Positions 1 through 8,910 of a stretch of 8,910 bases of DNA are shown here, one piece after another (the stretch's first letter is position 1; every line of letters begins with the position of its first letter). The stretch is from the NCBI RefSeq assembly GCF_044324785.1, contig NZ_CP172131.1, one strand, 5' to 3'. The position numbers and the translations under genes were made by a program. Source of the stretch: Escherichia coli. GTDB lineage: Bacteria; Pseudomonadota; Gammaproteobacteria; Enterobacterales; Enterobacteriaceae. Below the pieces are notes generated by a model, which saw only the letters and a list, made by a program, of their open reading frames with translations, searched no databases and was not told where the DNA came from.

Positions 1-69
1 TATTACCTTTCGAAGAAATTTTTGACATCCTCTACGCCCTGAAGGACCGGGTTTTACGGCGTACCAGAT

Positions 70-95
70 AAAAAAACCCCTCTACTGAAGAGGGG
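70..95 (-). terminator. Intrinsic terminator-like hairpin (minus-strand orientation)
   Basis: 7-bp GC-rich stem cccctct/agagggg (77-83/89-95) with 5-nt loop; the A-run at 70-76 on + gives a T-run after the hairpin on the - strand. Confidence 0.5.
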
Positions 96-218
96 TAGTG
101 TAAGGAACTTGCTGATTTTCTTGATATTATTAACCATCAATAACTGAGCATACAAAAAATAACAAAACTCTGACACAGATACAACCATCCCTCTTTGTAT
201 AAGACCGATGTGCATCTC

Positions 219-302
219 AAAAAAGAAGCGTGTTTCTGGAACACAGAACAACAATGCACATTGTAGCCAACAAATTCACACCAGAAACACGCTCTGTTTT
301 TT
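219..302. repeat. Long inverted-repeat element A: 13-bp perfect arms flanking a 41-nt loop, with A-run and T-run on the outside
   Basis: agcgtgtttctgg (227-239) is the exact reverse complement of ccagaaacacgct (281-293); aaaaaa at 219-224 and tgtttttt at 295-302 make the unit symmetric and terminator-like in both orientations. Confidence 0.6.
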
Positions 303-372
303 AATTTACACAAGAATATATGTCTGGAAAATCAGGAAGAAGAAATTAATGGGCATTCTGTATACGAAGGGA

Positions 373-434
373 GAGCGCGTTTCCGGTGCCCCATATTAGA
401 TATTATCCCTGCAACAAACACCAGAGACGCGCTC
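373..434. repeat. Inverted-repeat element B, related to element A
   Basis: Arms gagcgcgtttccggtg (373-388) and caccagagacgcgctc (419-434) pair over 16 positions with one mismatch and one G-U wobble, around a 30-nt loop; arm sequence is a variant of the element A arm. Confidence 0.55.
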
Positions 435-469
435 ATAATTCTTCTAGCGTAAATGATCCTTTCAGGCAA

Positions 470-497
470 GAAAAAAGCCGTGATTCTGTATCACGGC
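470..497 (-). terminator. Intrinsic terminator-like hairpin, strongest in minus orientation
   Basis: 8-bp stem gccgtgat/atcacggc (477-484/490-497), loop tctgt; aaaaaa at 471-476 gives a T-run on the - strand; a weaker T-rich tail (cttaatttta) follows on +. Confidence 0.45.
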
Positions 498-896
498 CTT
501 AATTTTATCGAAAACACGGATTTTAGTATGCACATGACTGTACTCCTGTGGAGTACAAGGAAATCATAATCAGCGACCAAACCATTTATCAACAGAAAAC
601 CAACATATTGATGTTATTTTTGTGACAAATGTTACAAATTCGAAACCACTGTATTTTTACTGCAACAAAATCTGGTTGATCTACAAGTTACACTGGGGTA
701 AAAAGTTGTCCGGAATGTTTCTGCGTAGTAAAGCCTCTAGCCGGATTGCCTTTGCAAAAACGCAGGAACGTTCCCCCCTTCATCAGTACTCCTGACGCTG
801 TAAGGAGCTGACTGATGCAGACAGGGCTGATGATATCTAATAAAAGCTATCTCATTTTTGCGCGTACATAAAATAAATCAGGCACTTCCCTACACT

Positions 897-925
897 CCCC
901 CTCCGGAATTGAGGGGGTTTTCTTT
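897..925 (+). terminator. Rho-independent terminator
   Basis: Stem ccccctc/gaggggg (897-903/911-917), 7-nt loop, followed by ttttcttt (918-925). Confidence 0.6.
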
Positions 926-1041
926 ACAATGTAAATAAATTGCTTGCGTAAAGTTCAAAAAAACTGCAAATTTTTACTGTAGTGTCGAGCTTCATGTAGC
1001 TCACCAGGGCATGGACTAAAAAGAAGTAAACCCATCTTTTA

Positions 1042-1067
1042 CCCCCCCTTATACGGGGGGTTCTTTA
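1042..1067 (+). terminator. Rho-independent terminator-like hairpin
   Basis: C-run (1042-1048) pairing with G-run (1055-1060) across loop ttatac, followed by ttcttta. Confidence 0.5.
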
Positions 1068-1361
1068 TAGCACAAAGAACACTTATAATTTATCATCTCA
1101 CAGCTATAAATATAAAAGAATAATATTCTAAACTACAGTTATTTATGCAGAACATAACATCAAACTCACAATAAATATAAAACAATTATTTTATAACTGT
1201 TCACTTATTATATTCAGACATATCAGAAACACGACTCAATTCTTTTTTATTTAACAAAATCCATAAAAAACTTATGGTTGAAATCACATTTAAACTGTGA
1301 AGGATATCATCCGGAGAAATTTTTCAATCCGACACTCCATAGAATGGACCTTTAAGACTTT

Positions 1362-1389
1362 ATCCTCATCATGTATGAGGATTTTTTTT
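1362..1389 (+). terminator. Rho-independent terminator
   Basis: Perfect 8-bp stem atcctcat/atgaggat (1362-1369/1375-1382), 5-nt loop, then a run of seven T (1383-1389). Confidence 0.7.
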
Positions 1390-1520
1390 CTGGCAAACAG
1401 TATCTTTCAGTAATCCTTGCTCAGTTCCGATTCTGACGTATCCCCGTGTGGATCTGAAAAGGAGATAATTACGCTCTGTGGCCAACAGGAATAACTCAAG
1501 CAGCTCCTCTCTGATACCAT

Positions 1521-1750
1521 CAGAAGAAGCATTAAACGCATTCTGGCGTCGATTACAGAAGAAGCGGAACGCGTTCCAGGCTCCTGTTGCTATACACACT
1601 ACCCACACTAACCCCATGGTTTTTGAGCGCCAGAAACGCGTCCGTATGCGTTTTAACGCGTTCCTGTGTTTTCAGCAAGGCCTGACTGAAGCTAGTTCCT
1701 AGTGCCCTGAACCAACCATTATCCAAAAAAATGCACCGGAAACGCGCTGA
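1521..1750. repeat. Array of at least five AACGCGTT-type palindromic motifs (iteron-like), same motif family as the arms of elements A and B
   Basis: Copies at about 1535-1546 (aaacgcattctgg), 1567-1578 (gaacgcgttcca, centred on the perfect palindrome GAACGCGTTC), 1633-1644 (gaaacgcgtccg), 1655-1665 (taacgcgttcc) and 1741-1749 (aaacgcgct). The 15-mer caccggaaacgcgct at 1735-1749 equals the reverse complement of 374-388. Two direct repeats beginning cagaagaagc sit at 1521 and 1556. Confidence 0.55.
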
Positions 1751-1772: not shown

Positions 1773-3326
1773 TTACCATCCCAGCGACGGGCCATCCAGT
1801 GTCCGTTCCTGTATTTCCAGATGGCGCTCACGCTCTAGGAATAGCTCATGTTCACGTTCCTGTATCAGTAGTTCGTCCCTTATCTCCTGCTCTCGCTGTA
1901 TAACTGGCTCAAGTGTTCTGTCTGCTCGCTCAAGTGCTGCACCTGCTGACTCAACTGCATGACCCGCTCGTTCAGCATCGCGTTGTCCCGTTGCGTAAGC
2001 GAAAACATCTTCTGCAATTCCACGAAGGCGCTCTCCCATTCGTTCAGCCGCTGCATATAGTCCTGTTGCAGCTGCTCTAAGGCGTTCAGCAAATGTGTTT
2101 CCAGCTCTGTCACTCTGTGTCACTCCTTCAGATGTACCCACTCTTTCCCCTGAAAGGGAATCACCTCTGCTGATTTCCCGTACGGAAGGACCAGAAATTT
2201 CCTGTTCCCGTCCTGCACGAACTCCACGCCCCATGTCTTCGCGTTCAGTTTCTGCAATGTCTCTTCCTGCTTCCTGATATCTTCCAGGTTCGCCTGTATC
2301 CTCCCGCCAAGATACCAGAGCGTCCCGCCACTCGCGGTAAACAGGAGAAAGACTATCCCCAGTAACATCATGCCCGTATTCCCTGCCAGCTTTAACACGT
2401 CCTTCCTGTGCTGCCTCATCGCCTCTTTCACCCCTTCCCGGTGTTTCTCCAGCGATTCCTCTGTCGAGGCTGTGAACAGGGCTATAGCGTCTCTGATTTT
2501 CGTCTCGTTTGATGTCACAGCCTCGCTTACAGATTCGCCGAGCCTCCTGAACTCGTTGTTCAGCACTTTCTCTGTAGATTCGGCTCTCTCTTTCAGCTTT
2601 TTCTCGAACTCCGCGCCCGTCTGTAAAAGATTGCTCATAAAACGCTCCTTTCAGCCTGATATTCTTCCCGCCGTTCGGGTCTGCAATGCTGATGCTGCTT
2701 CGCGTCACCCTGACCACTTCAAGCCCCGCCTCTGTGAGCGCCTGAATCACATCCTGACGGCCTTTTATCTCCCCTACATGATAAAGAGCGTCTATCCCGC
2801 GTGTGACGCTCTCAGCAAGCGCCTGTTTCGTTTCCGGCAGGTTATCAGAGAGAGTCAGTATCCGGCGGTTCTCCGGGGCGTTGGGGTCATGCAGCCCGTA
2901 ATGGTGATTCACCAGCGTCTGCCAGGCATCAATTCTCGGCCTGTCTGCCCGGTCGTAGTACGGCTGGAGACGTTTTCCGGTCTGTAGCTCCATGTTCGGA
3001 ATGACAAAATTCAGCTCAAGCCGTCCCTTGTCCTGGTGCTCCACCCACAGGATGCTGTACTGATTCTTTTCGAGACCTGGCATCAGTACGCGCTCAAAGC
3101 TCGCCATCACTTTTTCACGTCCTCCCGGCGGCAGCTCCTTCTCCGCGAACGACAGAACGCCTGACGTGTATTTCTTCGCAAATGGCGTGGCATCGATGAG
3201 TTCCCGGACTTCTTCCGGATTACCCTGAAGCACCGTTGCGCCTTCGCGGTTACGCTCCCTCCCCAGCAGGTAATCAACCGGACCACTGCCACCACCTTTT
3301 CCCCTGGCATGAAATTTAACTATCAT
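1773..3326 (-). CDS. mbeA: MbeA mobilisation relaxase (MOBP/HEN family), 517 aa
   Basis: ORF 1773..3374 trimmed to the internal Met giving MIVKFHARGKGGGSGPVDYLLG (ATG at 3326..3324). Carries the catalytic Tyr context PVDYLL and a HEN-type motif (WVEHQDKGRLELNFVIPN). The 517-aa length matches my recollection of ColE1 MbeA, and the start overlaps the mbeC stop as in ColE1. Confidence 0.9.
   Translation of the reverse strand: MIVKFHARGKGGGSGPVDYLLGRERNREGATVLQGNPEEVRELIDATPFAKKYTSGVLSFAEKELPPGGREKVMASFERVLMPGLEKNQYSILWVEHQDKGRLELNFVIPNMELQTGKRLQPYYDRADRPRIDAWQTLVNHHYGLHDPNAPENRRILTLSDNLPETKQALAESVTRGIDALYHVGEIKGRQDVIQALTEAGLEVVRVTRSSISIADPNGGKNIRLKGAFYEQSFTDGRGVREKAERESRIYRESAEQRVQEARRICKRGCDIKRDENQRRYSPVHSLDRGIAGETPGRGERGDEAAQEGRVKAGREYGHDVTGDSLSPVYREWRDALVSWREDTGEPGRYQEAGRDIAETEREDMGRGVRAGREQEISGPSVREISRGDSLSGERVGTSEGVTQSDRAGNTFAERLRAAATGLYAAAERMGERLRGIAEDVFAYATGQRDAERAGHAVESAGAALERADRTLEPVIQREQEIRDELLIQEREHELFLERERHLEIQERTLDGPSLGW
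1880..2113 (-). CDS. mbeD: MbeD-like small mobilisation protein nested out of frame within mbeA
   Basis: 77-aa ORF lying wholly inside mbeA in another frame, the arrangement described for ColE1 mbeD. Start is GTG (2113..2111) with AAGGAG 9 nt upstream; coiled-coil-like sequence. The start-codon choice is uncertain. Confidence 0.6.
   Translation of the reverse strand: MTELETHLLNALEQLQQDYMQRLNEWESAFVELQKMFSLTQRDNAMLNERVMQLSQQVQHLSEQTEHLSQLYSESRR
2120..2638 (-). CDS. mbeB: MbeB mobilisation protein nested out of frame within mbeA, 172 aa
   Basis: ORF inside mbeA in an alternative frame with a perfect SD (gaaAGGAGcgtttt then ATG at 2638..2636); a hydrophobic segment (MMLLGIVFLLFTASGG) suggests membrane anchoring; size matches ColE1 MbeB as recalled. 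Confidence 0.8.
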   Translation of the reverse strand: MSNLLQTGAEFEKKLKERAESTEKVLNNEFRRLGESVSEAVTSNETKIRDAIALFTASTEESLEKHREGVKEAMRQHRKDVLKLAGNTGMMLLGIVFLLFTASGGTLWYLGGRIQANLEDIRKQEETLQKLNAKTWGVEFVQDGNRKFLVLPYGKSAEVIPFQGKEWVHLKE

Positions 3327-3672
3327 CCCGCGCCCCCTGTTCCCTGACGGCCAGACGCAGCCGGCGCAGCTCATCCCCGATGGCCATCAGTGCGGCCACC
3401 ACCTGAACCCGATCACCGGAAGACCACTGCCCGCTGTTCACCTTCCTCGCGGTCTGATTCAGGTTATTCCCGATGGCGGCCAGCTGACGCAGTAACGGCG
3501 GTGCCAGTGTCGGCAGCTTCCCGGAACGGGCAACCGGCTCCCCCAGGCAGACCCGCCGCATCCATACCGCCAGTTGTTTACCCTCACAGCGTTCCAGTAA
3601 CCGGGCATGTTCATCATCAGTAACCCGTATCGTGAGCATCCTCTCGCGTTTCATCGGTATCATTACCCCCAT
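3316..3672 (-). CDS. mbeC: MbeC relaxase accessory protein (ribbon-helix-helix type)
   Basis: ORF with the N-terminal motif MKRERMLTIRVTDDEHARLLERC typical of MobC/MbeC accessory proteins; sits immediately upstream of mbeA and overlaps it by 11 nt. The true start is ambiguous among three in-frame ATGs (3672, 3663, 3654); the longest is given. Confidence 0.8.
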   Translation of the reverse strand: MGVMIPMKRERMLTIRVTDDEHARLLERCEGKQLAVWMRRVCLGEPVARSGKLPTLAPPLLRQLAAIGNNLNQTARKVNSGQWSSGDRVQVVAALMAIGDELRRLRLAVREQGARDDS

Positions 3673-3703: not shown

Positions 3704-3895
3704 GTGACTAAACAGGAAAAAACCGCCCTTAACATGGCCCGCTTCATCAGAGGCCAGACATTAACGCTGCTGGAGAAACTCAACGAACTGGACGCGGATG
3801 AACAGGCAGATATCTGTGAATCGCTTCACGACCACGCCGATGAGCTTTACCGCAGCTGCCTCGCACGTTTCGGGGATGACGGTGAAAACCTCTGA
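3704..3895 (+). CDS. rop: Rop/Rom, RNA I-RNA II pairing modulator, 63 aa
   Basis: GTG start at 3704 preceded by GGAGG (3694-3698). The translation VTKQEKTALNMARFIRGQTLTLLEKLNELDADEQADICESLHDHADELYRSCLARFGDDGENL matches Rop as I recall it from pBR322 except for one residue (G for S at position 17). Confidence 0.95.
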   Translation: MTKQEKTALNMARFIRGQTLTLLEKLNELDADEQADICESLHDHADELYRSCLARFGDDGENL

Positions 3896-3979
3896 CACAT
3901 GCAGCTCCCGGAGACGGTCACAGCTTGTCTGTGAGCGGATGCCGGGAGCCGACAAGCCCGTCAGGGCGCGTCAGCAGGT

Positions 3980-4050
3980 TTTAGCGGGTGTCGGGGCGCA
4001 GCCCTGACCCAGTCACGTAGCGATAGCGGAGTGTATACTGGCTTAGTCAT
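3980..4050 (+). other. bom/oriT region with predicted MbeA nic site (CTGG|CTTA, nick between 4041 and 4042)
   Basis: Sequence ggggcgcagccctgacccagtcacgtagcgatagcggagtgtatactggctta lies between rop and the origin exactly where pBR322/ColE1 carry bom; tactggctta at 4036-4045 contains the nic motif I recall for ColE1. Boundaries are approximate. Confidence 0.65.
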
Positions 4051-4226: not shown

Positions 4227-4719
4227 GTTATCCACACAATCAGGGGATAACGCCGGAAAGAACATGTGAGCAAAAAACGAAGACCCCAGAAAAGGCCGCG
4301 CCGGAGGCGCTTTTTCCATAGGCTCCGCCCCCCTGACGAGCATCACAAAAATCGACGCTCAAGTCAGAGGTGGCGAAACCCGACAGGACTTAAAGATACC
4401 AGGCGTTTCCCCCCGGAAGCTCCCTCGTGCGCTCTCCTGTTCCGACCCTGCCGCTTACCGGATACCTCTCCGCCTTTCTCCCTTCGGGAAGCGTGGCGCT
4501 TTCTCATAGCTCACGCTGTTGGTATCTCAGTTCGGTGTAGGTCGTTCGCTCCAAGCTGGGCTGTGTGCACGAACCCCCCGTTCAGCCCGACCGCTGCGCC
4601 TTATCCGGTAACTATCGTCTTGAGTCCAACCCGGTAAGACACGACAAAGCGCCACTGGCAGCAGCCGTTGGTAACTTGGTTAGCAGAGCGATGATGGCGC
4701 AAATGGTGCAACAGAGTTC

Positions 4720-4749
4720 TTGAAGTAGTGGCCCGACTACGGCTACACT
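4720..4749 (+). promoter_or_regulatory. RNA I promoter (-35 ttgaag 4720-4725, 18-bp spacer, -10 tacact 4744-4749)
   Basis: Conserved with the pMB1 RNA I promoter context (gttcttgaagt...ggctacact) directly upstream of the RNA I 5' end acagtatttgg. Confidence 0.7.
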
Positions 4750-4755
4750 GGAAGG

Positions 4756-4863
4756 ACAGTATTTGGTATCTGCGCTCTGCTGAAGCCAGTTACCTCGGTT
4801 AAGCAGTTCCCCAACTGACTTAACCTTCGATCAAACCGCCTCCCCAGGCGGTTTTTTCGTTTA
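4756..4863 (+). ncRNA. RNAI: RNA I antisense copy-number control RNA (about 108 nt)
   Basis: 5' region acagtatttggtatctgcgctctgctgaagccagttacct is identical to ColE1/pMB1 RNA I as recalled. Three stem-loops are retained, including ggttaag...cttaacc and the terminal hairpin aaaccgcctccccaggcggtttttt acting as terminator. Confidence 0.8.
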
Positions 4864-4871
4864 CAGGCAGC

Positions 4872-4900
4872 AGATTACGCGCAGAAAAAAAGGATCTCAA
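4872..4900 (-). promoter_or_regulatory. RNA II promoter (-35 TTGAGA as complement of 4895-4900; -10 TAATCT as complement of 4872-4877)
   Basis: The reverse complement reads ttgagatcctttttttctgcgcgtaatctg, matching the pMB1 RNA II promoter as I recall it. Confidence 0.7.
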
Positions 4901-4909
4901 GAAGATCCT
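4884..4909 (-). terminator. Intrinsic terminator downstream of kil, overlapping the RNA II promoter
   Basis: Stem aggatct/agatcct (4891-4897/4903-4909), loop caaga, with the A-run at 4884-4890 on + giving a T-run on the - strand just after the kil stop at 4920. Confidence 0.55.
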
Positions 4910-4919
4910 TTGATCTTTT

Positions 4920-5057
4920 CTACTGAACAGAGATCCCCGTCAGTTTAGAAGAAGATGATGGAGCCACAGTCCCTCCCTGAACATCACGTATATAGTTAGC
5001 CTGACATCCAACAAGGAGGTTTATAGCTAATATTCCCACAAAAAATCTTTTCCTCAT
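4920..5057 (-). CDS. kil: Colicin E1 lysis/release lipoprotein (Kil), 45 aa
   Basis: My own translation of the - strand (below the 60-aa ORF-track cut-off): [45 protein letters not shown], with lipobox LVGC and SD aagga 8 nt upstream of the ATG at 5057..5055. This is a typical colicin lysis protein placed downstream of cea and imm. Confidence 0.85.
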
Positions 5058-5104: not shown

Positions 5105-5446
5105 ATGAGTTTAAGATACTACATAAAAAACATTTTGTTTGGCCTATATTGCACACTTATATATATATACCTTATAACAAAAAACAACGAAGGGTATTAT
5201 TTCCTAGCGTCAGATAAGATGCTATACGCAATCGTGATAAGCACTATTCTATGCCCATATTCAAAATATGCTATTGAACACATATTTTTTAAGTTCATAA
5301 AGAAAGATTTTTTCAGAAAAAGAAAAAATCTAAATAATGCCCCCGTGGCAAAATTAAACCTATTTATGCTATACAATCTACTTTGTTTGGTCCTAGCAAT
5401 CCCATTTGGATTGCTAGGACTGTTTATATCAATAAAGAATAATTAA
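5105..5446 (+). CDS. imm: Colicin E1 immunity protein (Imm), 113 aa integral membrane protein
   Basis: Translation [44 protein letters not shown]... matches the colicin E1 immunity protein as recalled; SD gagg 8 nt upstream; convergent with cea, with the two stop codons overlapping by 4 bp. Confidence 0.95.
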
Positions 5447-7008
5447 ATACCCAACACATCATTTATAGTATTAAGTTTATTCTTGTCAATAAAGGCACAT
5501 AGAATGCCTGTAACAATAGCAATCCCCCAGATACCTAATGTAGTTCCAGCAAGCACACTAAAAAGTAAAACAACAATATAACTAACTCCAGCATCTACAG
5601 TTTTCTTCTCTAATGTAAGAAATAGTGGCTTCCAGTCACCTGTATCCTTAATTTTTAGGATATCAGATACCACATCATATCCAAAAGAAACATGTCCCGT
5701 AATCTTCAAGTACTTAGCAAACTGATCTAAATGCTTAGCCCAGTCTTCATACTTAACCGATTCCAGTGCATTGAAAATCGCATCACGGTCTGCTTTGCTG
5801 AATTTCTTATTTAAAACATCCTTGTATTTTTCAAAAGCAGCTAGAGCTTCATTCACATTGCTGATTTTCTTACCTTTAGACTTATCAGCAAGTTCCTGTG
5901 CCATTTTTGAATATTTTTCACCATATTTTTCAGATAGCGTTTGATAAAAGCTAACTGTTGCATCCACAGCATCCTTAATCTGCGAGTTCAGGAGATTAGT
6001 CTGCGCTGTTTTCAAATTTTCTTCAGATTCATGAACACGTAAAACAGCTGTATTACGATTATTATTAGCCTGAGACATAGCCCCCTGAATTCCATTTATC
6101 TCAGCATTAAGTTGGTTAATACGCGTTTCTGATGCTGTTACCTGTTTTTGTTTTTCCTCCATAATCTTACCGGCTCCCGTCCGTCGACTGGTGGCATAGA
6201 AAAAAGGACGACTCTGAAGCGGATCATTAGCTCTTGGTGACAATTTTTTGACCAGTTCATCAAGTTCCTTATATTTAGCAGATGCCTGAGCCAGCTCATT
6301 TCGTTTTCCGGACAGCGTATTCATTTCTGCATCACGGGCATGAATACTGGAGCTTAAACGGGTATTGAGAGTCTTAATCTCTTCATCCACTTTCGCCAGC
6401 TCAGATTGTGCAGCAGCAAGATTTTTTTGTGCCACCTCCACTGCCCGGGCCTCTTCATTCAATGCTGCCAGCCGTTTCTCTTCAGCTTCAGCCAGTTTCA
6501 ACTGGCGTTCTGTTTCAGCCTGCTCCTTCTCTATCTCTTTACGTCGTTGTTCTGCCTCCTGAAAAGCCTTTTCCGCAGCTTCCGCTTCTTTACGGGCTTT
6601 TTCTTCTGCTTTTGCAAGGCGCAACCGCTCTGCTTCTGCCTGCATCGCTGCATTATTGGCATGAGCCAGGTCAATAACCTCCGGATGAGTGGAATTATGA
6701 CGAAGCGCCTCATTCACAATATCCTTCAGATGTTGAGTCAGCGCATCCCGGTTTGCTTTTGCTTTAGCCTGTGCTTCTGCGGCAGCTTTTGCCCGGGCAG
6801 CCTGTTCTGCCTGCGTTTTCTTCAATTGAGCAGTAGACCATTTAGCTGTGGCATGAATGGCTGCAGAACTTTCACTTTTGCTACCTCCAGTTCCACCACC
6901 GCCGCCAGAGCCACTCCCGTCTGGATTACCATTCAAAAGAGTAATGATTACCTGCCCCTTATCATCATAAGGAACACCATCTTTATAGTACGCTACAGCT
7001 GTTTCCAT
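5443..7008 (-). CDS. cea: Colicin E1 (pore-forming colicin), 521 aa
   Basis: N-terminus [39 protein letters not shown] (Gly-rich translocation domain), a long Ala/Glu/Lys-rich coiled-coil central region, and a C-terminal channel domain with the hydrophobic hairpin [33 protein letters not shown]; SD gagg 8 nt upstream. Confidence 0.95.
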
Positions 7009-7267: not shown

Positions 7268-7705
7268 ATGGGACACTGTCACTTCATGGCATGGCACACA
7301 CTCCAGAACGCACTGAAAATGACAGGCAGATCGCGTTCACAGTTTTACCGTGATATGCGCGCAGGCCTTGTCAGTTATCGTACAGGCCAGGACGGACGGC
7401 GGGAGTTTGAAACCAGTGAACTGATCCGGGCATACGGCGAATTAAAGCAGGATGAGACACCAGAAAGGCACAGTGCGGGACAGGCAGAAAATCCACATGA
7501 TCAGCAGACAGAACGCATTCTCCGGGAGCTGAATGAGCTGAGACAATGCCTGACACTGATGCTTGAGGACAAACAGGCACAGGCTACGGAACGCCGGCGC
7601 CAGGAAGCCGAACGGGAACAGCTACATAAAGAGATAGAGCAGCTCAGGCAGGCACTGGAGCAGGAAAAAAAACGGGGATTCTGGGCCAGACTGTTCAGCC
7701 GGTGA
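7268..7705 (+). CDS. Hypothetical protein: N-terminal helix-turn-helix-like segment plus charged coiled-coil C-terminus (145 aa from the first ATG)
   Basis: ORF with an AlpA/MerR-like HTH-looking segment (MTGRSRSQFYRDMRAGLVSY) and an E/R/Q-rich heptad-like C-terminal half. None of the three candidate starts (7268, 7286, 7319) has a good SD, so start and expression are uncertain. Confidence 0.5.
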   Translation: MGHCHFMAWHTLQNALKMTGRSRSQFYRDMRAGLVSYRTGQDGRREFETSELIRAYGELKQDETPERHSAGQAENPHDQQTERILRELNELRQCLTLMLEDKQAQATERRRQEAEREQLHKEIEQLRQALEQEKKRGFWARLFSR

Positions 7706-7788: not shown

Positions 7789-8208
7789 ATGAGACGTTCC
7801 GGCGGCACACTGTATCTTATCGCCCTGCTGACAGCGGCAACGGTCCTGACAGCCTGCACGCCAAAGGGCAGTGTGGAACAACATACCCGGCATTACGTTT
7901 ATGCATCAGACGATGGTTTTGATCCTAACTTTTCCACCCAGAAGGCCGACACAACACGAATGATGGTGCCTTTTTTCCGGCAGTTCTGGGATATGGGAGC
8001 AAAGGATAAAGCGACAGGAAAATCACGGAGTGATGTGCAGCAACGCATTCAGCAGTTTCACAGCCAGGAATTTTTAAACTCACTCCGGGGCACAACTCAA
8101 TTTGCGGGTACTGATTACCGCAGCAAAGACCTTACCCCGAAAAAATCCAGGCTGCTGGCTGAGACGATTTCTGCGGTTTATCTCGATGGCTACGAGGGAA
8201 GACAGTAA
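7789..8208 (+). CDS. Predicted lipoprotein, 139 aa, function unknown (candidate entry-exclusion-type protein)
   Basis: Strong SD (taaggag, 6-nt spacing) and a signal peptide with lipobox (MRRSGGTLYLIALLTAATVLTAC, Thr at +2). The stop lies 5 bp before the cer core. Confidence 0.7.
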   Translation: MRRSGGTLYLIALLTAATVLTACTPKGSVEQHTRHYVYASDDGFDPNFSTQKADTTRMMVPFFRQFWDMGAKDKATGKSRSDVQQRIQQFHSQEFLNSLRGTTQFAGTDYRSKDLTPKKSRLLAETISAVYLDGYEGRQ

Positions 8209-8420: not shown

Positions 8421-8679
8421 CAGCTGTTTTCGATTCCACAAAATAGAAGTTACAGGATAGGGATTAATCCCCTTCGCCGCCAAGGGGAGCAGGATGAGTC
8501 AGGGGAATGTCTATTCACCTGCGCTGTACAGGCTGCCAGGTAAAAGTATTCGCTGCGGCACGATACTCTTTTGCCCTCATAGCCTTTGCGCTTCTTACTT
8601 TTCGTTCTTCCAGAATCATTCTTAAGACATTTTCCCGCACTTTTCTCTAACTTCCCGTGGCAATTTATCTCTGCCGGAC

Positions 8680-8910
8680 TGAACCGCCCCGGAAATCCTG
8701 GAGACTAAACTTCCTGAGAAAGATGTAAACAGGATGACTAAAAATACTCGTTTTTCCCCCGAAGTCCGTCAACGGGCAGTTCGTATGGTTCTGGAAAGCC
8801 AGGGCGAATATGACTCACAATGGGCGGCAATTTGTTCCATTGCTCCAAAGATTGGCTGTACGCCAGAGACCCTGCGTGTCTGGGTTCGCCAGCATGAGCG
8901 GGATACCGGG
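8680..8910 (+). mobile_element. Left end of an IS3-family insertion sequence resembling IS629 (partial; continues past the window)
   Basis: Terminal sequence tgaaccgccccggaaatcctggagactaaacttcctgagaaag starting at 8680 with the 5'-TG typical of IS3-family ends, followed 54 bp later by the orfA start. Confidence 0.8.
8734..8910 (+). CDS. IS3-family transposase OrfA (HTH N-terminal part), truncated by the window end
   Basis: Translation [59 protein letters not shown] is open to the last base; it matches IS629-group OrfA N-termini as recalled. Confidence 0.8.

What the first reader, a model, noticed from the sequence alone, without database searches (positions are those of the whole stretch)
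1..1400. ORF-poor, AT-rich 1.4-kb block with five intrinsic-terminator hairpins in both orientations
No ORF of plausible coding character crosses this block, yet it holds three plus-strand terminator-like hairpins (897-925, 1042-1067, 1362-1389) and two minus-strand ones (70-95, 470-497). That is a high density for DNA with no protein genes and suggests several short transcription units, such as small RNAs or type I toxin-antitoxin-like pairs. A 13-bp direct repeat ataaatataaaa(g/c) occurs at about 1105 and 1172. Possible sRNA units are roughly 980-1067 and 1310-1389.
Basis: partly seen in the sequence, partly recalled or inferred. Interest (0 to 1): 0.55.

Follow-up and report, generated by a model that had tools for sequence, protein, structure and literature searches.

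The report
ORF-free hairpin-rich plasmid cargo block
The finding is most of a 1.6-kb protein-free accessory segment of a small E. coli colicin plasmid, packed with conserved terminator hairpins and palindromes that probably mark several unnamed small-RNA genes; related copies sit on two other plasmid types, and nothing has been shown experimentally.

Summary
The window is a complete 8910-bp ColE1-type colicin plasmid of E. coli. Bases 1-1400 are unannotated in every RefSeq copy. All five terminator hairpins are at the stated coordinates (10 hits against 1.5 expected). No ORF shows coding character, and the 12-nt repeat is present twice.

The real unit is larger, about 71-1643. It lies between the cer/"gene X" side and the 3' end of mbeA. 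An 81%-identical copy sits in IncK/B/O/Z plasmids between IS elements. A distant collinear relative (62-83%) sits in Col8282 Rep_3 plasmids.

Conservation is very patchy: six identical runs of 30 nt or more against 0.3 expected. The conserved islands abut the terminators, stems change by compensatory substitutions, and indels are mostly not multiples of three. Terminators face outward from the centre, which fits internal divergent transcription units.

The block also holds three members of a plasmid-specific long-loop palindrome family with an invariant GTTTCNG/CNGAAAC core. Bases 18-70 are an inserted copy of a dispersed repeat.

Small-RNA genes are the best reading, at moderate confidence. 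A type I toxin-antitoxin is not supported. Function is unknown, and the block tolerates IS insertions.

The parts
1..17 (.). Remnant of the region upstream of 'gene X' (an 81-aa basic protein gene on the minus strand). It is joined to a truncated IS629-like element at the circular junction 8910|1.
   Evidence: The IS-free relative L021 and the IncK copy L010 continue leftward into the gene X start. The junction lies in a GGGATAYCGGG microhomology.
18..70 (+). Solo copy of a roughly 50-nt dispersed repeat (TTGACATCC...ACGGCGYACC.GAT). It is an insertion relative to lineage B.
   Evidence: It is absent from the same spot in L010. Thousands of copies occur in E. coli chromosomes, plasmids and Stx phages, usually beside a terminator hairpin. 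Two inverted copies flank 211 bp in L029.
70..96 (-). T1 intrinsic terminator (ACCCCTCTTCAGTAGAGGGGT followed by seven T).
   Evidence: Found. The stem differs by compensatory changes in the Col8282 copy.
97..186 (-). Body of the T1 unit. It holds the conserved motif AAAUCAG-N5-UUCCYUACACU just 5' of the terminator. A weak promoter-like TTGTAT-17-TATTTT lies at 184->156, found by eye.
   Evidence: It is 93-96% identical in lineage B and 83% in the Col8282 plasmids, where it occurs without the rest of the block's left half.
219..301 (.). Palindrome A (GCGTGTTTCTGG ... CCAGAAACACGC, 41-nt loop), flanked by an A6 run and a T6 run.
   Evidence: z = -4.6 on either strand.
305..332 (+). Promoter-like site TTTACA-16-GAAAAT, pointing into palindrome B.
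   Evidence: Found. The same site is found in lineage B.
373..434 (.). Palindrome B (GAGCGCGTTTCCGGTG ... CACCAGAGACGCGCTC, 30-nt loop).
   Evidence: z = -4.7. It differs at only two bases (97%), both in the loop, in lineage B. It is a paralogue of a hairpin just downstream of mbeA in ordinary ColE1-like plasmids (71-72% over 65 nt).
470..592 (-). T2 unit. It has a promoter-like site at 592->563, a 5' stem-loop at about 556->540, a conserved single-stranded core and a terminator at 500->474.
   Evidence: z = -3.9; z = -5.0 in B. There is a 51-nt identical run at 497-547. The core CCTTAAWWTTATCGAAAACACGRATTT is kept in all three lineages.
647..681 (.). 35-nt island identical in lineages A and B, of unknown role, in the central zone from which the units diverge.
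712..775 (.). Palindrome C (GGAATGTTTCTGCG ... CGCAGGAACGTTCC) with the conserved loop GTAAAGCCTCTAGCCGGATTGCC.
   Evidence: The stem is kept with 3 double and 5 single compensatory changes across A, B and Q, and the loop sequence is conserved.
868..925 (+). T3 unit end. It is an inverted paralogue of the T1 motif plus terminator (hairpin 897-917 and its T-tail).
   Evidence: A 54-nt inverted repeat joins 72-125 and 868-921 at 74%. See also the alignment and terminator scans.
965..1067 (+). T4 unit: a conserved island at 965-1040 followed by a terminator at 1041-1067.
   Evidence: The stem is kept with a G-U change in lineage B. No convincing promoter was found.
1070..1275 (.). AT-rich, poorly conserved spacer (GC about 0.28). 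It holds the 12-nt direct repeat at 1106 and 1171 and a palindrome half-site, CAGAAACACG, at 1224-1233.
   Evidence: It is weakly collinear with L029 4873-4995, where the palindrome is intact.
1283..1389 (+). T5 unit. It has a promoter-like site at 1283-1310, a conserved body at 1318-1381 that begins at the predicted start, and a terminator at 1362-1389 with eight T.
1400..1643 (.). Right-hand part of the block, outside the finding. It holds the perfect palindrome GGAACGCGTTCC (1567-1578). It ends in the motif CCAGAAACGCG (1630-1640), where homology switches from the block to the common ColE1 backbone.

Best explanation
Bases 71-1643 are a dispensable, protein-free accessory segment of a ColE1-type colicin plasmid. 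Recombination and IS activity have moved it between plasmid backbones. Its main content is probably a set of small RNA genes arranged divergently.

Two units would be transcribed leftward: T2, about 556->470, and T1, about 150->68. Three would be transcribed rightward, ending at 925 (T3), 1067 (T4) and 1389 (T5). Each would end at an intrinsic terminator and give RNAs of about 70-100 nt. T1 and T3 are siblings that share the single-stranded motif AAAUCAG-N5-UUCCYUACACU.

Between these units lie three long-loop palindromes of a plasmid-specific family with an invariant GTTTCNG/CNGAAAC core. These most likely act when folded, as RNA or as single-stranded DNA, because the distance between their arms varies from 28 to 50 nt.

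Shown here: the anatomy, the distribution, the patchy conservation, the stem covariation and the lack of coding signal. Inferred: that the units are transcribed, that the RNAs act in trans, and any target.
For: - The window is a whole plasmid, and the region is unannotated in all copies.
- Terminators are enriched about 7-fold, and the hairpins recur in lineages B and Q.
- The A and B copies are 79-81% identical overall. They show six identical runs of 30 nt or more against 0.31 expected, and the chance of a longest run of 51 or more is 0.002. These runs lie next to the terminators or in the palindromes.
- Only 3 of the 20 indels between A and B are multiples of three.
- No ORF is conserved with a coding-like substitution pattern.
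- tblastn against lineage Q hits the same DNA in several frames.
- No protein family matches.
- Compensatory changes occur in T1, T2 and palindrome C.
- The T2 unit folds well, with z = -3.9 and -5.0.
- The T1 module also occurs on Col8282 plasmids without most of the block's left half.
- In the palindrome family, 86% of cells are paired, 9 of 16 pairs have double changes, and 0 of 500 shuffles reach this.
- Terminators face outward from the centre.
Against: - There are no expression data, and no Rfam family matches even at E up to 5.
- Promoter-like sites are no more frequent than in shuffles: 7 against 4.2 +/- 2.1. They are weak or absent for T1, T3 and T4.
- In lineage Q the T2 terminator is reduced to a 4-bp stem while the core sequence is kept. 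That suits a DNA site as well as an RNA.
- Only two effective lineages plus one distant one exist, so covariation statistics for the individual units are thin.
- Copies interrupted by IS2-like, IS1 and IS21 elements persist, so the block is not needed for plasmid survival.
- The block is rare: 40 PLSDB records, all E. coli.
Confidence: 0.42

Rival explanations
1. It is inert mosaic DNA. The block would be a patchwork left by repeated recombination and IS events between co-resident plasmids. It would carry 3' ends and terminators of long-lost genes and have no present function. On this view the patchy conservation reflects recombination tracts, not selection.
For: - The block is flanked or interrupted by IS elements in almost every copy.
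- Its left edge is demonstrably debris: an IS629 stump, a microhomology deletion and an inserted repeat.
- The neighbouring gene X is frameshifted or truncated in lineage A.
- The A-to-Q relationship is mosaic, 83% in one module and 62% in another.
- The block is rare and dispensable.
Against: - Identical runs of 35-54 nt embedded in 55-80% identical DNA are too short and too many for recombination tracts.
- Stems change by compensatory substitutions.
- No trace of any protein gene is found in six frames.
- Small plasmids of 5.3-8.9 kb keep 1.6 kb of it in three backbones.
Confidence: 0.22
2. It is a cis-acting DNA element. The palindromes and conserved islands would work as DNA. One option is single-strand initiation (priming) hairpins on the transferred or lagging strand. 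Another is a par/cer-like accessory site that binds host proteins. On this view the terminators only insulate it.
For: - Palindrome arms are invariant in their core, but their spacing varies from 28 to 50 nt. That argues for recognition of a folded single strand.
- Family members lie just downstream of relaxase genes: mbeA in ColE1 backbones, and the Q block directly after mobQ.
- Other members lie 12-15 nt from the Xer core of Klebsiella ColRNAI plasmids.
- The T2 core is conserved in Q although its terminator is not.
Against: - The block has no Xer core, no iterons and no oriT-like similarity.
- The block has opposite orientations relative to the relaxase gene in A and Q.
- The Q block stays with rep when mobQ is replaced.
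- Palindromes do not explain the five well-formed terminators and the conserved stretches upstream of them.
Confidence: 0.2
3. It is a non-autonomous transposable element. The 54-nt inverted repeat (72-125 and 868-921) would form the ends of an 850-bp MITE-like element carrying the palindromes and T2.
For: There is a long inverted repeat at 74%. A true MITE-like element with 51-nt ends sits next to the T1 module in L029.
Against: - There is no target-site duplication at 60-71 and 922-933 (read).
- The repeat consists of a terminator plus an RNA-like motif.
- In Col8282 plasmids only one copy is present.
- No copies exist outside the same 40 plasmids.
- Homology between lineages A and B runs on for another 700 nt to the right.
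Confidence: 0.06
4. It is a type I toxin-antitoxin locus or loci: a small hydrophobic toxin mRNA with an overlapping antisense RNA.
For: Convergent and divergent short units with terminators resemble such loci. A 14-aa ORF with an AGGAG Shine-Dalgarno sequence, hidden in a 5' stem-loop, lies in T2 and is kept in lineage B.
Against: - No ORF of 18-60 aa with a transmembrane-length hydrophobic stretch is conserved.
- The 14-aa ORF is too short, and a 1-nt indel destroys it in lineage Q while the nucleotides stay conserved.
- The 18-aa ORF at 815-871 loses its Shine-Dalgarno sequence and its stop codon in lineage B.
Confidence: 0.04

Closest known systems
Plasmid-encoded small regulatory RNAs ending in intrinsic terminators (e.g. 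ColE1 RNAI, R1 CopA, F FinP, ColE1 Rcd)
   Same: The size is similar, about 70-100 nt. The layout is similar too: a 5' stem-loop, a conserved single-stranded stretch, then a GC-rich hairpin with a U-tail. They are plasmid-borne, and there is no protein product.
   Different: None of the units is antisense to a recognisable replication, transfer or killer gene. Rfam finds only the plasmid's own RNAI, at 4758-4860, far from the block. Five units are clustered in a gene-free block instead of being embedded in a replicon or operon.
Sibling (multicopy) Hfq-type sRNAs such as OmrA/OmrB
   Same: T1 and T3 share a conserved stretch directly 5' of different terminators and have diverged elsewhere. T1, T2 and T5 have U-tails of 6-8.
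   Different: Similarity to OmrA-B in Rfam is only terminator-level: 18 bits against a threshold of 40. T1 and T3 are inverted relative to each other. Hfq binding is untested.
cer-type multimer resolution sites and their internal stem-loop (Rcd region)
   Same: The palindrome family has a member 12-15 nt from the XerC/XerD core of Klebsiella ColRNAI plasmids. Palindrome B shares ..GCAACAAAC.ACC.. with the cer accessory region.
   Different: There is no Xer core anywhere in the block, and the block is not paralogous to this plasmid's own cer. I could not compare with the published Rcd sequence.
Integron attC sites (structured recombination sites bounding cassettes)
   Same: These are imperfect palindromes of 60-85 nt. 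Their ends are conserved, while their centres vary in sequence and length. One motif copy sits exactly at a homology breakpoint (1630-1643).
   Different: The ends are GTTTCNG/CNGAAAC, not RYYYAAC/GTTRRRY. No integrase is present. The other boundaries of shared segments do not coincide with palindromes.
MITEs and REP-like dispersed repeats of enterobacteria
   Same: Bases 18-70 behave like such an element. There are many copies, a solo insertion relative to a sister sequence, a position beside terminator hairpins, and one MITE-like pair of 51-nt inverted ends.
   Different: I could not name the element. In K-12 the repeat abuts the IS609 tnpA end, but IS200/IS605 elements do not have inverted ends. 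The rest of the block is not repetitive.

Membership tests
Intrinsic (Rho-independent) terminators | GC-rich stem of at least 5 bp, a short loop, and a following T/U run | tested here: met
   All five stated sites pass. There are 10 hits against 1.5 +/- 1.1 in shuffles.
Intrinsic (Rho-independent) terminators | Hairpin maintained in relatives despite sequence change | tested here: met
   T2 has a C:G to T:A double change and an inverted loop. T1 has two double changes in the Col8282 copy. T3-T5 are found again in lineage B. T1 in B and T2 in Q are weakened.
Trans-acting small RNA genes | Own promoter at a suitable distance | tested here: inconclusive
   T2 scores 10/12, and 9/12 in B. T5 scores 9/12 in A, with a different hexamer pair in B. 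T1 is seen only by eye at 3/6 + 4/6. T3 and T4 have none. The overall count is not above shuffles.
Trans-acting small RNA genes | Conserved unpaired stretch 5' of the terminator | tested here: met
   T1 and T3 carry the motif AAAUCAG-N5-UUCCYUACACU in five copies. The T2 core is kept in A, B and Q. The T5 body, 1318-1357, is identical in A and B.
Trans-acting small RNA genes | A detectable transcript of defined ends | not testable with these tools
   No expression data were available.
Any Rfam family | Score at or above the family's gathering threshold | tested here: not met
   Only RNAI at 4758-4860 passes. In 1-1900 the best match is 21.6 bits against thresholds of 40-144. None is found in the Q plasmid.
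Type I toxin-antitoxin | Conserved ORF of about 18-60 aa with a membrane-spanning hydrophobic stretch and a ribosome-binding site | tested here: not met
   Candidate ORFs are too short, not hydrophobic enough, or broken in relatives.
Type III toxin-antitoxin | Tandem RNA repeats followed by a terminator and an endoribonuclease gene | tested here: not met
   The block has no tandem array. The adjacent gene X is an 81-aa basic protein with no family match.
Decayed protein-coding gene | Residual similarity to a protein family in some frame, or frame-consistent conservation | tested here: not met
   NCBIfam on six frames finds nothing. tblastn hits fall in several frames for the same DNA. Only 3 of 20 indels are multiples of three. 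There is no third-position bias.
cer/Xer recombination site | XerC arm, a 6-8-bp spacer, and XerD arm | tested here: not met
   The only site in the window is the true cer at 8242->8213. None is found in the block or in lineages B and Q, at up to 6 mismatches with the XerD arm at 2 or fewer.
Integron attC | Terminal core sites RYYYAAC / GTTRRRY and an integron integrase nearby | tested here: not met
   The arms read GTTTCNG / CNGAAAC. No recombinase is annotated on the plasmid.
MITE / non-autonomous transposon (for 72-921) | Terminal inverted repeats, a target-site duplication, and multiple dispersed copies | tested here: not met
   An inverted repeat is present. There is no duplication at the flanks and no copies outside the same plasmids.
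Iteron or RNA-primed replication origin | Iterons with a Rep gene, or an RNAII/RNAI pair | tested here: not met
   The block has no direct-repeat array. In the Col8282 relative the iterons lie elsewhere, at 550-690. RNAI is found only at 4758-4860.

The most novel reading that the evidence does not exclude
The block and its relatives may be a previously unrecognised kind of plasmid cargo. It would be an ORF-free 'RNA/hairpin island' that spreads among co-resident small and large plasmids. Its GTTTCNG/CNGAAAC long-loop palindromes would be recognition sites for an unknown protein acting on folded single strands. That protein could be a recombinase that assembles the island piecewise, or a factor used during conjugative single-strand transfer.
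Probability: 0.12. Interest if true: 0.7.

Novelty: new member of a known kind. Interest (0 to 1): 0.4.

Why it matters
Small plasmids are compact, so 1.6 kb of conserved protein-free DNA kept on three different backbones suggests a function that annotation pipelines cannot see. If the units are small RNAs, they would add plasmid-borne regulators that could act on the host or on co-resident plasmids.

The palindrome family is also present in several hundred ordinary ColE1-like plasmids and next to the Xer site of common Klebsiella plasmids. It may therefore point to an unrecognised step in Col-plasmid biology.

If the block is only debris, it is still a useful example. It shows that terminator-rich, gene-free DNA on plasmids can arise from IS and recombination traffic.

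Tried and rejected
**Searches that found nothing useful**
- Rfam at gathering and at permissive thresholds gave nothing in the block.
- Six-frame translations against NCBIfam gave nothing but an IS3 stump.
- Gene X was searched against NCBIfam, Pfam and PHROGs with no result.
- Phage records matched only the 50-nt repeat.
- A genome-contig scan for a 21-mer from the most conserved island found 0 hits.
- A genome-contig scan for the palindrome-B pattern found 2 tiny contigs in Rhizobium and Bradyrhizobium assemblies. One was checked (L028) and carries the ColE1-backbone hairpin; the other was not examined further.
- A metagenome scan returned 8 contigs, all of lineage A or B, so it added no new diversity.
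- Literature searches found nothing on this region. I searched for pSMS35_8, Col8282, the repeat sequence and Rcd. The Rcd review holds no sequence to compare.

**Ideas rejected**
- A decayed bacteriocin operon next to gene X: there is no similarity to the Klebsiella cloacin plasmids beyond gene X itself.
- A second or relic replication origin: there are no iterons and no RNAI.
- A duplicated cer: there is no Xer core and no paralogy.
- Target prediction: a full RNA duplex scan timed out. An exact-complement scan found a 14-nt match of T1 to the colicin mRNA. The matching bases vary between lineages, so I treat it as probably chance.
Full report
**Context**

The 8910-base window is an entire circular plasmid. 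It is 100% identical to several 8.9-kb E. coli plasmids, mostly from poultry. RefSeq annotation of NZ_CP135675.1, offset by 112 bases, gives the map below in window coordinates.

| Feature | Window coordinates |
|---|---|
| mbeA | 1773-3326 (-) |
| mobC-family gene | 3316-3639 (-) |
| rop | 3704-3895 (+) |
| RNAI | 4758-4860 (+) (Rfam 87 bits) |
| colicin-E1-type immunity | 5105-5446 (+) |
| pore-forming colicin | 5443-7008 (-) |
| hypothetical gene | 7268-7705 |
| exc2 | 7789-8208 |
| perfect XerC/XerD cer core | 8242->8213 |
| left end and first 59 codons of an IS629-like element | 8680-8910 |

The IS629-like element stops exactly at the circular junction with base 1. Nothing is annotated in 1-1772 in any copy.

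**The observation**

On the + strand they are at 897-917, 1041-1061 and 1362-1382. On the - strand they are at 96->76 and 500->474. The scan gives 10 overlapping hits in 1-1800 against 1.5 +/- 1.1 in shuffles.

GC is 0.28-0.42 here, against 0.50-0.63 in the mob genes. The longest ORF inside 1-1400 is 66 aa. The 12-mer ATAAATATAAAA occurs at 1106 and 1171.

**True extent and the left edge**

Similarity searches split the region into parts.

Bases 1630-1800 are the ordinary ColE1 backbone downstream of mbeA. They are present at about 91% identity in roughly 250 plasmids.

Bases 97-1643 (71-1643 in the best copy) have an 81%-identical relative, "lineage B". It occurs only in large IncK/B/O/Z plasmids, always inside an IS-rich stretch between nikB-pemIK and trbC.

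Bases 18-70 are a copy of a roughly 50-nt repeat. It occurs thousands of times in E. coli chromosomes, in Stx1 phages upstream of stx1, after parR of IncK plasmids and after pacB of P1-like plasmids. It is usually followed by a terminator hairpin. In K-12 it abuts the tnpA end of IS609. Lineage B lacks it at the homologous spot (cgaagaattttat|aaaaaacc), so here it is an insertion.

A metagenomic relative without IS629 (L021), together with lineage B, shows what originally lay to the left. It is an 81-aa basic protein gene, "gene X" (WP_045148228.1), on the minus strand. Its start codon lies about 80 nt before window base 1.

Gene X is intact in lineage B and frameshifted in L021. In the window it lost its 5' part in a deletion whose end lies in the microhomology GGGATAYCGGG. 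It matches no Pfam, NCBIfam or PHROG family. It has 53-55% identical homologues next to the cer-like site of about 400 Klebsiella ColRNAI bacteriocin plasmids.

**A third, distant relative**

Six 5.3-5.6-kb Col8282-type plasmids ("lineage Q") have a Rep_3 initiator with iterons at 550-690, plus MobQ or a LysE gene. Each carries a 1.67-kb ORF-free insertion next to the 3' end of rep. The common 4.07-kb Col8282 plasmids lack it. Parts of this insertion are collinear with the window block.

| L029 (lineage Q) | Window | Identity |
|---|---|---|
| 3727-4042 | 462-791 | 62%, E = 4e-15 |
| 4572-4690 | 67-186 | 83% |
| 4563-4629, inverted | 869-934 | 78% |
| 4873-4939 | 1115-1181 | 71% |

The four Q plasmids whose strain I verified (TUM1886, TUM9803, LH10-b-1, LH50-c) sit in a strain that also carries an A or B plasmid. 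The other two (AP026461.1 and NZ_CP127319.1) are paired with one by neighbouring accession number only. The block therefore belongs to a small family of protein-free accessory segments on three unrelated backbones. It was not found in one genome per species of GTDB. In metagenomes it appeared only as lineages A and B.

**Coding or not**

Several independent tests say the block is non-coding.
- Six-frame translations hit no NCBIfam family except the IS3 stump.
- The 20 indels between A and B have lengths 1, 3, 5, 5, 5, 7, 4, 1, 1, 2 and 2, 1, 1, 14, 5, 1, 3, 1, 12, 8. Only three are multiples of three.
- No ORF of 20 aa or more combines frame conservation with third-position bias.
- tblastn of every stop-to-stop segment against lineage Q hits the same DNA in several frames. 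That is the signature of nucleotide-level conservation.
- Small ORFs with a Shine-Dalgarno sequence exist, of 14 aa in T2 and 18 aa at 815-871. Both are broken in a relative while the DNA stays similar.

The block is therefore non-coding in all lineages, and I found no trace of a former gene.

**Evidence for constraint**

Identity between A and B is 79% over 1573 positions, but it is very uneven. It is 94-96% around 121-170, 371-470, 521-570, 971-1020 and 1321-1370, and 54-66% in 1071-1270. Six runs of 30 or more identical bases are seen (54, 51, 40, 37, 35, 34) against 0.31 expected. The chance of a longest run of 51 or more is 0.002.

The islands lie immediately upstream of the terminators on the terminated strand, or inside palindromes. 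Terminator stems change in a compensatory way.
- T2 changes from GCCGTGAT/ATCACGGC to GTCGTGAT/ATCACGAC, and its loop is inverted.
- T1 changes from CCCCTCT/AGAGGGG to CCCTCA/TGAGGG in lineage Q.
- T4 keeps its stem through a G-U pair.

T1 and T3 are inverted paralogues (54 nt, 74% complementary). They share AAAUCAG-N5-UUCCYUACACU directly before their different hairpins in all five copies examined.

The T2 unit has a promoter-like site (10/12; 9/12 in B), a perfect 5' stem-loop, a 30-nt core conserved in all three lineages, and a strong terminator. It folds with z = -3.9 in A and -5.0 in B. The conserved body of T5 begins at 1318, the start predicted from the 1283-1310 promoter-like site.

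The two minus-strand terminators lie in the left half and the three plus-strand ones in the right half. That orientation stops transcripts that start inside the block. It does not stop read-through from mbeA or from the left flank.

The motif CCRGAAACRCG occurs five times in the window against 0.02 expected, all between 229 and 1746. It forms the arms of long-loop palindromes at 219-301 and 373-434. A variant forms the palindrome at 712-775. Each folds with z about -4.6 on either strand.

Relatives occur in several other places.
- One lies just downstream of mbeA in ordinary ColE1-like plasmids. It is 71-72% identical to palindrome B. The left arm of that copy has decayed in this window.
- Three lie in the Q block.
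- One lies 12-15 nt from the Xer core of Klebsiella ColRNAI plasmids.

In an alignment of ten members, 86% of cells pair and 9 of 16 pairs show changes on both sides. No shuffle of 500 reaches this, and slid registers give 33-51%. The core G-T-T-(T)-C-N-G / C-N-G-(A)-A-A-C is invariant. Loops differ in sequence and in length (28-50 nt). Palindrome C is an exception: its loop is conserved between A, B and Q while its stem covaries.

Variable arm spacing with an invariant core argues for recognition in a folded single strand, RNA or ssDNA, and against a double-stranded operator. One motif copy (1630-1640) is exactly where homology switches from the block to the ColE1 backbone. The other segment boundaries do not coincide with palindromes. 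A scan of species-representative genomes found this palindrome only on two tiny contigs, so it appears to be confined to plasmids.

**Interpretation**

The best-supported reading is that 71-1643 is a dispensable accessory segment whose conserved content is a set of small, terminator-ended transcription units. These are candidate small RNAs of about 70-100 nt, with T1 and T3 as siblings. They are interspersed with structured palindromes of a Col-plasmid-specific family. The anatomy, distribution, constraint and absence of coding are shown. Transcription, trans action and targets are inferred.

The evidence has weak points.
- There are no expression data and no Rfam match.
- Promoter signals are not above background (7 against 4.2 +/- 2.1).
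- T2's terminator is degenerate in Q while its core is kept.
- Only two close lineages and one distant lineage exist.
- Copies interrupted by IS2-like, IS1 and IS21 elements persist.

Three rivals remain open: inert recombination debris, cis-acting DNA (priming hairpins or a par/cer-like accessory site), and a MITE-like element bounded by the T1/T3 repeat. Type I and type III toxin-antitoxin, a decayed gene, a second origin and a second cer were tested and not supported.

**Verdict**

The leftmost 70 bases are debris, and the block is larger than stated.

Each component is of a known kind, so I file the block as a new member of a known kind. The combination is still noteworthy: a conserved protein-free island shared by three backbones, plus a plasmid-specific palindrome family also found in hundreds of ordinary Col plasmids. 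It deserves a transcript map. Interest is moderate.

Noticed in passing
window 8680-8910 and junction 8910|1: An IS629-like left end with the first 59 codons of orfA stops at the circular junction, inside GGGATACCGGG. The IS-free relative has GGGATATCGGG there. So a microhomology deletion removed the rest of the IS plus about 155 nt of plasmid, including the start of gene X.
   Followed up: yes
window ~8515-8679 (-); intact in L010 9812-10057: Gene X is an 81-aa lysine/arginine-rich protein with no family match. It is a pseudogene in the ColE1-like lineage and intact on IncK/B/O/Z plasmids. About 400 Klebsiella ColRNAI bacteriocin plasmids carry 53-55% identical homologues beside their cer-like site.
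   Followed up: partly
window 18-70; L029 4250-4300 and 4512-4562; K-12 next to IS609 (L012 1201-1240): A roughly 50-nt dispersed repeat, which I could not name, is usually inserted beside terminator hairpins. It occurs as solo copies, and once as 51-nt inverted ends of a 313-bp MITE-like element that carries one GTTTCTG/CAGAAAC palindrome.
   Followed up: partly
L014 526-590, L015, L016 (ordinary ColE1-like plasmids); window 1690-1750: About 250 ColE1-like plasmids carry the backbone stretch just downstream of mbeA. In the three copies read here it holds a 62-nt palindrome of the same family, unannotated. In this window its left arm has decayed.
   Followed up: partly
L025 4429-4495 and L026 3302-3368: In Klebsiella ColRNAI plasmids a member of the palindrome family lies 12-15 nt from the XerC/XerD core. 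Its loop resembles the ColE1 cer accessory sequence (GGCAACAAACCACCCGAAAA). It might correspond to the Rcd-coding stem-loop, but I could not check this against a published Rcd sequence.
   Followed up: partly
window 103-116 versus 5884-5897 and 6261-6271: The T1 core AUCAGCAAGUUCCU is perfectly complementary over 14 nt to the colicin mRNA (codons QELAD), and over 11 nt to a second site. The naive chance of one such match is about 0.003-0.005. The central bases vary in lineages B and Q, and some carrier plasmids encode colicin R or no colicin.
   Followed up: partly
plasmids NZ_CP128977.1, NZ_CP135677.1, NZ_CP100537.1, NZ_CP100506.1, NZ_CP127319.1, AP026461.1: The six Col8282-type plasmids with the related block appear to co-reside with a ColE1-like or IncK/Z plasmid that carries the main block. 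I checked strain names for four of them; the other two are inferred from neighbouring accession numbers. This may reflect exchange between co-resident plasmids, or only a shared poultry niche.
   Followed up: partly
window 4565-4723: RefSeq annotates a 52-aa 'hypothetical' or 'replication initiation protein' ORF in the RNAII region, ending just before RNAI (4758-4860). It is probably spurious.
   Followed up: no
window 491-535 (-): A 14-aa ORF (MCILKSVFSIKLRP) lies inside the T2 unit. Its AGGAG Shine-Dalgarno sequence is buried in the T2 5' stem-loop. The ORF is kept in lineage B and destroyed in lineage Q by a 1-nt indel.
   Followed up: yes
window 1567-1578: A perfect 12-bp palindrome, GGAACGCGTTCC, lies inside a 25-nt island identical in lineages A and B. 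Two similar AACGCRTTC copies lie at 1535 and 1655.
   Followed up: no
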